In this document: positions 9,903-37,600 of the stretch, one piece after another
Layout: each line of letters starts with the position of its first letter
How positions within the stretch are numbered: the first letter of the stretch is position 1
Source of the DNA: Lama guanicoe
Lineage: Eukaryota
Length of the DNA stretch: 64,000 nt
NCBI GenBank assembly: GCA_013239625.1
Contig: MU053645.1
Coordinates: 62,001-126,000, forward strand
Direction: 5' to 3'
The notes under the pieces: model-generated
What the model was told of the DNA's origin: nothing
Databases searched by the model: none
What the model saw: the letters and a program-made list of their open reading frames with translations, nothing else
Position numbers and translations under genes: made by a program

Positions 9903-10128
9903 TATGATTTAGATTTGTGTGCCAAGAGGTTATTATTAGAGATTAAGGTGTCTGGCTATTCCTGTCACTACTAAGGCAGTTCCTACCAAAAACAGTACTT
10001 ATACCAATGCCTCTTTTAGAACTACAAAGAGCCACAAAAGTTTTATAACTTGTGTGGCCTGTTCTCCTCCAGGTGAATATCCCAAGGATGCTTGAACACG
10101 TTGTTTGAATGGGACAATATGGAAGATA
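9903..10128 (-). other. PWWP3B: 5'UTR part of the PWWP3B coding exon; splice acceptor AG at 10130-10129
   Basis: Minus strand reads cttttctccttttccttttccctattttag|TATCTTCC (long polypyrimidine tract + AG). No upstream ATG seen between acceptor and start codon. Confidence 0.75.
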
Positions 10129-10467
10129 CTAAAATAGGGAAAAGGAAAAGGAGAAAAGTATAAGCAAATAAAATTATTTTGCCAAAGGAGATGAGCAACT
10201 GCAAATAGAGAACAGACAGAAGGAAGGACAATGCTCAGTGGGGCATCAGATGGAGGAGAAAAATGCAGCATAATATAAGGTGGGAGTTAAGAATTGGAGA
10301 AGTGTTTTTATAATACCTCAAGCTCAAGAACTTGCCCTAATTATTGCAAGGAGTGACTATATGTGCATGACGGCAAAGGTGGGAGAGACTATGGTGGTGT
10401 GTCAGGAACTCTATTTAATGTTATTAGATACTTTGGGACTTTTGTGCCCCTAATGTTATCCCTAGGG

Positions 10468-10649
10468 CAGTGGGACTCTAAACTTAGCGTACATCAGAAT
10501 CATCTGGAGGAACTGTTAAAACTACATTTCTAGGCCCTATCCTGAGAATTTTATTCAGAAGGTCTGGATAGGATCCAACACTTTGTATTTTATAATAAGT
10601 GATCAAGTGATGGTAAGGCTACCTGTCCAAGAACTCTTTGGAAGCACTG
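10468..10649. mobile_element. MER5A-like hAT-Charlie MITE
   Basis: cagtg...cactg termini, catcagaatcatctggagg core, ctag-centred target on both sides. Confidence 0.8.
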
Positions 10650-34497: not shown

Positions 34498-34635
34498 CTC
34501 CAAGCTTCTTCTCCTCTCCCTTCGGCGGAGGCCTCCGAAGTCTGTCTGTAATGCGGCTCCTCCCCCAAGACTGGCCAGGGACGGCTCACTTCCAAGCTTC
34601 TAGAGGATGCTCCGCCCCCTCCCTGTGATGGGGAA
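34498..34635 (-). promoter_or_regulatory. Promoter and first exon, copy 3 (GC box 34610-34623), the most CpG-rich copy
   Basis: Same GC box and GAG|gtaatg donor; different, CpG-containing exon body. Confidence 0.6.
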
Positions 34636-37600
34636 AGCAGGAGGTCCTTCCCTCGTTTAGAGGGAGGAGGATCACCAAGTTAAACCGAAATACAGTTAAA
34701 GGAAAGAAATGCTCATTTTTAAAGAACTTTAACGTGTAATGGAAACATATGTCTGTTCAATTTTCTTTCAAACCCCTAGGGTGGGTGATTTCCTGAAAAA
34801 AGAAAAGAAAAGGAGATAGCAAGTCCCATTTTCGTGTAATAAAGCTGCAGTTAAAATGTTCCTTACATATTTTTTCAGGCCTTCTCTTATTCTTTATCTC
34901 TGGTAATTAAGACCTGTTAGTCAGGCTTTACTAAAAAAGCATGCGAAGTGTCTTGATTGGGATTGTAGTGAATCAATATTTTATTTTATGGAGAATTCGT
35001 TCTTTACAATTTTGAATCTGAACCTGGAACACAATGTGTATCTTCTTTCATTCAGGTCTCTTAATCCTTCCTTCCTTAGGTCATTTCTAAGGAAAAATTC
35101 TCAAACAAGATCTGACTATATTGAAATTGAAAAAAAATGTATCAATAATAAAACCACAATAAGCCAAAGTCAAAAATCAACCACAAACTTAGAAATGTTT
35201 TTCAATGCATATGATTGGATAAACAAAAATATCCCTAAACTAGTTATATTTCATTCAGAAAGAAAGGAATAACGTACCAGAGAATTAGGCAAATGGCACT
35301 AGCAGACATTTCATAATATCCTTTTCTACTCCTGATATTTACTTACCTTTAAAGAAAGTTCAAGTAGGGCAACTTGAAGGCTCTCTGTGCTTCTTCTAGA
35401 CTGGACAGGCAGCTAAGCAGATGGATAGTTTGCTTAAATCTGGGTTTCTGTTACTCCCATTTCATTCTCATAATGAGCAATATCCTGCAATTCATTTTCC
35501 CCTCTTAATAAAGGTGACACATGTTTTTATCTGCTATTCCATTTATTTTATTGCAATTTGTTCATTATCTTCAAGATATGACAATTGTAACCTTTTATGT
35601 ACCCACTAAGAAACCTCAAAATGCGTAATACTGCAAAAATGTATAAAAATACATTACTGAGCAGGCAAGAGAATTTTGTAGAGCTCTAACAGAGTGGGAG
35701 AAAATTCCGACCAGCTCTTCCTGAGGCCCTTTTAGCATAGAAAGCATTTTGATCTCTCCCAGATTAAACACTACGTGCTTGGTCTTGTAGTATCTGATAT
35801 GATTTCTGATAGCACATTCTCTCAAGGTCGCTGATAAAATTTCAAAAACCTAGGCTTCTCAATACTGCAACTCTATAAAAACAGCCTTCTGTTCTTCTGT
35901 TCATGAGAATTTCTGCAAAATTGTGGAATCAGTCCTGTTCTTTATCAAGAAACATAATATTAGAAACATTGTTCATTGAAACATAGCAACATTAAGAACA
36001 GAGAACTGATAAACTTTGTTCTTTAAAATTGGAAGACCGTGAGAAACTTTGTATTGAGAAAGAAAAGATTCTATTCTGAGGGTTGCTCCTTTATTGTCAT
36101 TGATGTTTTAGTTTTCTTTGGTATTAAAAAATACTTTAAAATGAAACCAGTACAACAAAGAAAAAATACATACCAAACTATAAAATAGCCAATATGTCAG
36201 GTGTTGGTGAGAAAGAGAAGCAACTTGAATGTTCATACACTGCTGGAATGTAAATTGGAACTAATATTTTGGGAAATGCTTGATATTATCCCCTGAAACT
36301 GAACACTATAGAGGCTGAGATAGAACATTTAGGGCTTTCAGTAACAGAGTTACATGTCTAAATTGGTAGAGAAATGGTCCCCACAGAAAGCTATGCATAT
36401 TCAAGAGCACATATGAGACTATCTAATGGGATATATGAGGTATGTAATCAGAATTCATTTTTTATTTTAATTTATTTCAAAAGCTTTATTTATAAATAAA
36501 ATAATAGTACCATACAAACATATTTGTATGGTATTATTGTATTTTTATATACTTTATAAAATATTGAATTATGGGAGGTAGCAACAAATTTGTTACAGTG
36601 GTGGTAAAAAAGCTATGTAGAGATCTCTGCTTTATAGGACTCACAGTGCACATAGTCTTCCCATTTGTCTTCTCTCTGATTTGTGTGGTTTGGGATTATA
36701 ATCTCATAAAAAGACTAATCTGAACTTCCTAGATGGCCTATATATTGATCTCACTGCTCAGAGAAACTACTGTTACCTTCTATTAAATACTTAAAATAGT
36801 AATGAGAAATCAAAATGTAGTAAGCCAAGTTTTTACCAGAGGATTGATTCTTGCCAACTTCAGACAATGCTACAAAATATGTTGGCCTACTGCTATTTTA
36901 TTTGGACTATATAAAGGTTTTTACTATACTATTATAAAGCCAAAAATTTAATGCCAACAACGATTGGTTTTTTTCTTTAATGTCAACCTAAATTTAATTT
37001 CTAACTTCCCTATTTAACTTTGAGACCTTGAAAATAATGAGTGAATTTTTTTGATACCTGGAAAATTCCTAAGAAAATCAGAATCCATGAACACGGACCC
37101 TCAAACATACCAAGTTGCAATGCAATAATTTTTGAGAGTCTTACATATGAAAGTATTTATTTTCATAAAGTTCAAATTAATATAATAAAATCAATATGGA
37201 ATATGCATCAGCTTATAAGATGTTGAGAAGTTAATTATATTTTGAAGCTTAAGTCTAAACTTTTTATAATATGTATTTATTTGGGTGTATGTTTAAGTAT
37301 ATACATATAATGATACATTAATTTGAATAAGATCAGCTTAGGGATAATAGAAAGGAGAAGATTAAATAATTAAGATAAAAAATGATCTTAGAATATATAG
37401 TCTGCCCTTACAGTGATATCATATAGACTTATTTTTTTTAATATACTCTATCTAGATCCCAGAAAGGTGCTTCACTTATATGTATATTTTCAATTCAAAA
37501 AAGTTAACCTATATCCTTTTACACTGCCTTGTACCATGTTCATAGGTGCCTTATTTCAGGAAGAGCTAAATTTTTTACTTATCATGATGCTTCTTTCTGC

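What the first reader, a model, noticed from the sequence alone, without database searches (positions are those of the whole stretch)
9950..35250. Tandem array of three promoter/5'UTR-exon cassettes upstream of one PWWP3B coding exon
Seen: three collinear copies of a ~4-6 kb unit. Each has, in transcript order on the minus strand, a GC-box promoter with first exon and GT donor (13484, 27770, 34498), a conserved 15-mer, exon C, a YY1 module (11705, 26064, 32372) and exon B with a gtaagg donor (11165, 25368, 31678). Only copy 1 is followed by an ORF. Inference: the distal cassettes are alternative promoters/leaders splicing to the single acceptor at 10129, a 'variable promoter, constant CDS' design analogous to duplicated first exons in MAGEA4 or clustered protocadherins, but wholly non-coding. 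I cannot tell whether it has been described.
Basis: partly seen in the sequence, partly recalled or inferred. Interest (0 to 1): 0.8.

Follow-up and report, generated by a model that had tools for sequence, protein, structure and literature searches.

The report
Ancient promoter array feeding one retrogene
Upstream of a camelid's single-exon PWWP3B coding sequence lie three complete and one broken copy of an old non-coding promoter-and-leader unit that share patches of near-identical sequence, likely from copy-to-copy gene conversion, and they likely give the gene several start sites and 5' leaders for one unchanged protein, though no RNA from them was seen here.

Summary
The repeat is real and larger than reported. 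Three collinear units (about 9960-14040, 23300-28900, 29630-35620) keep the same promoter core, first-exon donor, YY1-type block and exon B; a fourth, promoter-less unit lies at 41470-44470. Background identity is only 52-70%, so the duplication is ancient, likely as old as placental mammals. On top lies a mosaic of near-identical tracts between changing pairs (copies 1/2: first exon and exon C; copies 2/3: 463 identical bases over exon B and its intron), the mark of gene conversion. Corrections: copy 3 has lost exon C's donor, and the acceptor at 10129 is itself part of the repeated unit, with homologues in the other copies, so leaders are likely spliced in combinations rather than chosen Pcdh-style. 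No coding remnant follows copies 2-4. Databases list several transcripts per identical PWWP3B protein in most mammals checked, but I could not lay RNA reads, so use of copies 2 and 3 is inferred. No paper or earlier scan note on this locus was found; the scan noted a similar kept-in-sync promoter duplicate elsewhere in this genome. Verdict: new variant of a known kind.

The parts
7818..9902 (-). PWWP3B coding sequence, 694 aa, uninterrupted
   Evidence: 99% to dromedary PWWP3B; 1 residue from the alpaca protein, 7-8 from Camelus
9903..10128 (-). 5' untranslated part of the last exon (segment A1), 226 bases, no ATG; acceptor AG ends at 10129; belongs to the repeated unit
11165..11229 (-). predicted exon B1 (65 bases, or 61 from a second AG at 11226), no ATG
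11590..11870 (-). YY1-type block of copy 1; possibly a second promoter
   Evidence: 75-77% between all three copies; motif names recalled
12630..12730 (-). predicted exon C1, 101 bases, two upstream ATGs
13272..13286 (-). 15-base element invariant in copies 1-3
13484..13620 (-). promoter core and predicted first exon of copy 1, donor GT at 13483
23306..24600 (-). segment A2 and coding-free tail of copy 2; strong donor at 24034
25368..25553 (-). predicted exon B2, 186 bases, one start-stop ATG
25429..25891 (.). 463 bases identical to 31739-32201 (conversion tract, copies 2/3, mostly intron)
25950..26200 (-). YY1-type block of copy 2
26945..27045 (-). predicted exon C2, one upstream ATG; block 91% identical to copy 1
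27770..27900 (-). promoter core and predicted first exon of copy 2; one difference from copy 1 in 132 bases (27797 vs 13511)
29630..30710 (-). coding-free tail of copy 3
30711..30783 (-). predicted cassette exon A3, 73 bases, homologue of the start of the last exon, with its own strong donor
31678..31863 (-). predicted exon B3, 186 bases
32250..32500 (-). YY1-type block of copy 3, with a possible donor at 32364
33150..33450 (-). decayed exon C block of copy 3, donor lost
34498..34650 (-). promoter core and predicted first exon of copy 3; CpG-richest of the three
39079..39362 (-). tail-like fragment, 71% to 42247-42505; a fifth remnant or a shared dispersed repeat
41470..44470 (-). fourth, partial unit: intron piece 43784-44470, acceptor AG ending at 42969, segment A4 and tail; no promoter, exon C, YY1 block or exon B found

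Best explanation
The region is an old tandem array of at least four copies of a non-coding unit in front of the uninterrupted PWWP3B coding sequence; the three copies that keep a promoter core and first-exon donor likely act as alternative promoters whose leader exons are likely spliced, in several combinations, to the acceptor at 10129, so one protein would be made from several start sites, and gene conversion likely keeps single modules alike between changing pairs of copies. Shown: the array, its depth of divergence, the pair-specific near-identical tracts, the conserved motifs and splice-site dinucleotides, the lack of coding remnants behind copies 2-4. Inferred: promoter activity, the junctions, the retrocopy origin (a PWWP3A-derived copy that came to lie behind segment A of the proximal unit), and a regulatory effect of leader choice: exon C adds one or two upstream ATGs, exons B2/B3 a start-stop ATG, while first exons, B1, A1 and A3 have none.
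For: Array and motifs. Background distance K2P 0.39-0.91 by segment, pooled 0.53-0.74, against 83-95% identity in the promoter core. Conversion: at 1593 variable of 3304 three-way columns, the longest agreement runs are 26 (copies 1/2), 9 (1/3) and 77 (2/3) sites against shuffle maxima of 15, 11 and 11; best segment p = 0.0002 for each pair in 5000 shuffles; the tracts exclude the third copy and the 463-base one is mostly intron. CpG observed/expected 0.12, 0.37, 0.51 at promoters 1, 2, 3, window 0.16, as expected if the distal promoters stay unmethylated in the germline. Several transcript accessions per identical protein: four curated mouse NP_ entries, and multiple XP_ entries in camelids, pig, cattle, deer, primates, rat and armadillo. 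Tails of copies 2-4 are homologous to each other past the point where copy 1 turns into coding sequence, and copy 2's tail finds its best match of 492 window pieces just behind the 3' end of the gene (score 49, next 41, mean 25).
Against: No transcription start or splice junction was observed. The accession lists do not say whether the transcripts differ at the 5' or 3' end or which exons they use; elephants and bison list one RefSeq accession each. Conversion from one working copy can keep dead modules looking conserved. Exon B2/B3 donors match the consensus at only 6 of 9 positions. No copy is a full CpG island. The tail match behind the gene is weak (nhmmer E 0.0015; 49 vs shuffle maximum 47), and 700 bases of copy 2's tail have no match around the gene. 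No orthologous DNA was obtained, so age rests on a recalled mutation rate.
Confidence: 0.6

Rival explanations
1. One promoter (most likely distal copy 3) does nearly all the work; the other copies only lend internal leader exons or are kept alike passively by conversion.
For: Copy 3 is CpG-richest and copy 1 is at background level; A3, B and C have acceptors as well as donors, so they can serve as internal exons; multiple database transcripts could come from exon skipping alone.
Against: The 40-column promoter block, the 15-mer and the first-exon donor are invariant in all three copies although copy 3 is otherwise 52-64% identical to copy 1 in introns; first exons of copies 1 and 2 lack an obvious acceptor need and keep their own upstream block.
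Confidence: 0.2
2. The distal copies make separate non-coding transcripts that end in their own segment A and tail, or act as enhancers for copy 1, and do not join the coding exon.
For: Each unit ends in an acceptor-like segment A followed by a coding-free tail, the layout of a complete small transcription unit.
Against: A3 has a strong donor 73 bases after its acceptor and copy 2's tail has one at 24034, which would carry splicing onward; no Rfam family in the window.
Confidence: 0.1
3. The units are dead duplicates of a whole PWWP3B gene whose coding exons were deleted.
For: Each unit includes the start of the last exon; copy 1 lacks several hundred bases present in the other tails, so rearrangement happened near the junction.
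Against: No coding or 3' UTR remnant; three tails share the coding-free state; the eight more distant '3B-like' or PWWP4-named proteins put in the tree form a separate clade with PWWP4, not recent PWWP3B duplicates. One deletion before copies 2-4 arose is not excluded.
Confidence: 0.06
4. The near-identical tracts, above all the 463 identical bases, are an assembly or polishing error, and the array is an ordinary decayed duplication.
For: Zero differences over 463 bases; no reads were laid to check it.
Against: The tract fades into 81-95% identity on both sides; other tracts have graded identity (82%, 91%, 95%); a Camelus ferus gene model from another assembly holds the same first exon, exon C and exon B pieces.
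Confidence: 0.04

Closest known systems
BGW element of BEX, WEX/TCEAL and GASP/ARMCX genes (Winter and Ponting 2005, PMC1274310, parts 1-2 of 5 read; Navas-Perez et al. 2020, PMC7586669, passages and one supplement passage)
   Same: Eutherian X-linked genes with one coding exon, homologous non-coding 5' exons kept alike by gene conversion, co-opted by retrocopies; a YY1 site is part of the module.
   Different: There each copy heads its own gene; here several copies stand in front of one coding exon and most have none. The BGW cores were not found in the units.
Retrogenes with gained 5' exons and alternative promoters, e.g. HNRNPF (Carelli et al. 2016, PMC4772013, passages; supplements not available)
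   Same: Uninterrupted coding exon with upstream non-coding exons and several isoforms; over 80% of ancient retrogenes are multi-exonic by that paper.
   Different: The passages seen do not describe promoters that are tandem paralogues of each other; MUM1 is not named in its main text.
Variable-first-exon clusters: clustered protocadherins, UGT1, GCNT2 (PMC3325998, PMC1885805; search listing and abstract start)
   Same: Tandem homologous promoter-exon units upstream of a shared constant part.
   Different: Their variable exons are single and coding; here the units are multi-exon and non-coding, so the protein does not change.
Long-lived mosaic concerted evolution of BMP8A/B, DDX19A/B, TUBG1/2 (Carson and Scherer 2009, PMC2720389, abstract)
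   Same: Duplication older than the eutherian radiation with homogenised segments that include intron.
   Different: Those are pairs of whole genes; this is a non-coding array of three or more units with partner switching.
SNRPN upstream non-coding exons (PMC11872474, passages) and MAGEA4 duplicated first exons (recalled; two searches found nothing)
   Same: Alternative non-coding starts upstream of one coding region, tissue-biased in SNRPN.
   Different: That the SNRPN U1 exons and MAGEA4 first exons are duplicates of each other is my recall and was not seen in the passages; they are single exons rather than 6-kb multi-exon units.

Membership tests
Variable-first-exon cluster (Pcdh/UGT1 type) | Tandem homologous first exons, each behind its own promoter-like sequence | tested here: met
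   (sequence only)
Variable-first-exon cluster (Pcdh/UGT1 type) | Variable exons encode alternative N-termini | tested here: not met
   first exons have no ATG; none of 12 modelled leaders gives an in-frame extension
Variable-first-exon cluster (Pcdh/UGT1 type) | Each variable exon is spliced to the shared constant exons | not testable with these tools
   no RNA reads could be laid on the locus
Variable-first-exon cluster (Pcdh/UGT1 type) | CTCF-based or stochastic promoter choice | not tested
   no call
Retrogene with gained 5' exons | Uninterrupted coding sequence with an intron-bearing parent | tested here: met
   single ORF; PWWP3A is the nearest outside group (midpoint root); its introns are recalled
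Retrogene with gained 5' exons | 5' exons come from flanking, non-parental sequence | tested here: inconclusive
   they belong to a local array with coding-free tails; no PWWP3A DNA to compare
Retrogene with gained 5' exons | Alternative untranslated isoforms | tested here: inconclusive
   several accessions per identical protein; exon content not shown
BGW element family | About 60-base BGW motif with E-box in the first exon or promoter | tested here: not met
   three 9-10 base cores from the supplement figure are absent from promoters and first exons; only a 6-base E-box in B2 and B3, one of 10 such sites in the window; a core-only test
BGW element family | Gene conversion among non-coding 5' exons | tested here: met
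Long-lived mosaic concerted evolution | Old duplication with homogenised tracts that include intron | tested here: met
Long-lived mosaic concerted evolution | Paralogues closer than orthologues in several species | not testable with these tools
   no orthologous DNA

The most novel reading that the evidence does not exclude
A tandem array of coding-free transcription units existed first and served as a landing pad: a PWWP3A retrocopy dropped into the last unit and gained three promoters at once, and for about 100 million years module-wise gene conversion has reshuffled first exons and uORF-bearing leader exons among the units, giving a wholly non-coding, combinatorial leader library that sets where and how strongly one germline chromatin reader is translated.
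Probability: 0.3. Interest if true: 0.72.

Novelty: new variant of a known kind. Interest (0 to 1): 0.5.

Why it matters
If true, it is a compact natural experiment: homologous promoters of one age compete for one unchanged protein, so differences in tissue use can be mapped to a few bases, and it shows a route by which a retrogene gains several promoters in one step. It would also warn that short-read mapping, primer design and variant calls upstream of PWWP3B can confuse the copies. PWWP3B is named among candidate H3K36me3 readers in meiotic prophase (10.64898/2026.03.26.714455, passages), so leader choice may bear on germ-cell biology.

Tried and rejected
RNA: 24 runs were listed for 7800-13700, 14 RNA or probable RNA runs holding 0.31-0.64 of its words; none could be laid, so the list is not used as evidence for any cassette. 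No whole genome held. Metagenome scan with a 20-base promoter motif: 1 hit, with no similarity to the window beyond the motif, taken as chance. Rfam: 0 matches in 64 kb. Coding remnants behind copies 2-4: none. Further promoters, exon C, YY1 or exon B copies in the window: none. Tail of copy 4 or 3 behind the gene's 3' end: no match. '3B-like' proteins as products of other units: rejected, they group with PWWP4 (23 of the 124 proteins then held were used). BGW membership: cores absent. Literature: PWWP3B (24 papers, all listed) and MUM1L1 (98 papers, 40 listed) show no title or abstract start on its promoters; combined searches gave nothing on this locus. PMC12045991 passages say only that Pwwp3b loss does not affect antiviral signalling; PMC8227738 passages did not describe duplication of SNRPN exons. 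Supplements of PMC4772013, which may list MUM1L1 isoforms and CAGE starts, could not be seen. Subscription papers and genome browsers were out of reach, so 'not described' is limited to this library.

Full report
Setting. The minus-strand ORF at 7818-9902 encodes 694 residues without interruption. It is PWWP3B (MUM1L1): 99% identical to the dromedary protein, with full-length relatives named from artiodactyls to elephant and armadillo among the best 120 of 476 hits, and one residue from the alpaca protein, so the window is from a South American camelid. X linkage is recalled and fits a search listing.

The repeat. Self-comparison shows three same-strand collinear copies. Fourteen invariant runs of 12 or more columns stand against at most 4 in 2000 shuffles. 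Three corrections follow. Exon C keeps both splice sites only in copies 1 and 2; copy 3's block is 55-56% identical and has lost the donor. The unit does not stop before the acceptor at 10129: 10467-9987 aligns with 24949-24471 (307 of 433) and 10443-10046 with 31100-30708 (246 of 370), scores 128 and 93 against shuffle maxima of 44 and 41. In copy 3 this part looks like a 73-base cassette exon with a strong donor at 30710. And there is a fourth unit: 43211-42142 matches the segment A profile at E 3e-58, its tail follows copy 2 down to 41470/23306, it keeps an acceptor AG at the homologous place, and a collinear intron piece lies at 43784-44470. Its promoter, exon C, YY1 block and exon B were not found.

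Age. Outside the conserved blocks the copies are 49-70% identical, K2P 0.39-0.91 by segment and 0.53-0.74 pooled. With a recalled rate of 2.2e-9 per site per year this gives 120-170 million years pooled and about 90-110 for the best-aligned segments; global alignment inflates the distances. The duplication is thus likely as old as placental mammals, which predicts the array in human and mouse. I could not test that.

Mosaic identity. Copies 1 and 2 share the promoter core and first exon (143 of 151) and the exon C block (247 of 271); copies 2 and 3 share the exon B region (501 of 506, with 463 identical bases, mostly intron); copies 1 and 3 share the stretch after exon B (206 of 251). For each pair the best segment beats all 5000 shuffles. 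The shuffle test alone cannot tell conversion from selection, but selection would not exclude the third copy nor hold over 300 intron bases at 100%. Partner switching along the unit is the expected trace of repeated non-allelic gene conversion of different ages. Blocks conserved in all three copies (promoter core, 15-mer, YY1-type block at 75-77%) point to selection as well.

Signs of use. CpG observed/expected is 0.12, 0.37 and 0.51 at promoters 1, 2 and 3 (2, 6 and 10 CpG in 300 bases; window 0.16). The 226 bases between the acceptor and the start codon hold no ATG. Of the 7 clusters looked up, those of primates, mouse, bovids and deer, pigs, armadillo and rat hold proteins with several transcript accessions, among them four curated mouse entries; the elephant cluster does not. 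The camelid cluster does too. With a one-exon coding sequence these transcripts must differ in untranslated parts, but the lists do not show where. This is the main gap.

Leader content. Of 12 modelled leaders none extends the protein; those with exon C carry one or two upstream ORFs of 14-74 codons, those with B2 or B3 a start-stop ATG, and five carry none. Leader choice could therefore tune translation; this is inference.

Origin. No coding or 3' UTR remnant follows copies 2-4, and their tails are homologous to each other beyond the point near 9955 where copy 1 turns into PWWP3B. A weak same-strand match of copy 2's farther tail at 5761-6054, behind the gene's 3' end, is the best of 492 window pieces but barely above shuffles. 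The simplest order is array first, retrocopy into the proximal unit second; one early deletion of the coding exon before copies 2-4 arose remains possible. In a 23-protein tree the distant '3B-like' entries group with PWWP4, giving no sign of coding exons behind other units.

Comparison. It works like a variable-promoter, constant-exon gene but is no member of the Pcdh/UGT1 class, whose variable exons code. The nearest described biology is the BGW element (PMC1274310, parts 1-2 read; PMC7586669, passages): X-linked single-coding-exon genes, retrocopies among them, with homologous 5' exons under gene conversion; but BGW cores are absent here and there each copy has its own gene. Retrogenes commonly gain 5' exons and alternative promoters (PMC4772013, passages). 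Conversion lasting over 100 million years is known for three gene pairs (PMC2720389, abstract). Alternative non-coding starts are known for SNRPN (PMC11872474, passages). Ten searches found no account of this array, nor did the scan's notes.

Verdict. A real, ancient, non-coding promoter-and-leader array with module-wise conversion before one retrogene exon; alternative promoter use likely (0.6) but unseen. Each ingredient is known; the combination was not found in print. New variant of a known kind, interest 0.5.

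Noticed in passing
28956, 28783, 35346 (minus): The only three perfect-consensus splice donors between 9 and 46 kb lie 0.7-1.1 kb upstream of the promoters of copies 2 and 3; they may mark further leader exons or starts.
   Followed up: no
11590-11870, 25950-26200, 32250-32500: The YY1-type 9-mer follows a conserved element that resembles a ZNF143/THAP11 site (names recalled), a pairing typical of promoters; copy 3 has a possible donor at 32364. 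Each unit may hold a second promoter.
   Followed up: partly
13272-13286, 27558-27572, 34281-34295: The invariant 15-mer resembles a paired-class (DUX-type) homeodomain dimer site, one mismatch from the recalled consensus.
   Followed up: no
23006-23288 vs 5761-6054: Weak collinear match suggesting that copy 1's tail resumes behind the gene's 3' end.
   Followed up: partly
39079-39362: Fragment like the tails of copies 3 and 4; fifth remnant or dispersed repeat.
   Followed up: partly
4341-4492 vs 6477-6634: A 150-base piece of the probable 3' UTR recurs 2.1 kb downstream at 74% identity.
   Followed up: no
14321-14474 vs 16127-16278: A 150-base direct repeat (78%) flanks a stack of LINE-1-like 3' ends between copies 1 and 2 (repeat class recalled).
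   Followed up: no
P0122 (Camelus ferus EPY77273.1): An 864-residue gene model strings a copy-2-type first exon, exon C1 and exon B1 in frame onto the coding exon; likely an automatic prediction, but it shows the pieces in another camelid assembly.
   Followed up: yes
P0105, P0107, P0109, P0111, P0113, P0114: Proteins named 'PWWP3B-like' in dugong, sloth, seal, horse, bear and tamandua group with PWWP4, sister to PWWP3B.
   Followed up: yes
5236-5640, 46534-46938, 60724-61107: Short ORFs that look like Tigger transposase and LINE-1 ORF2 remnants (likeness recalled).
   Followed up: no
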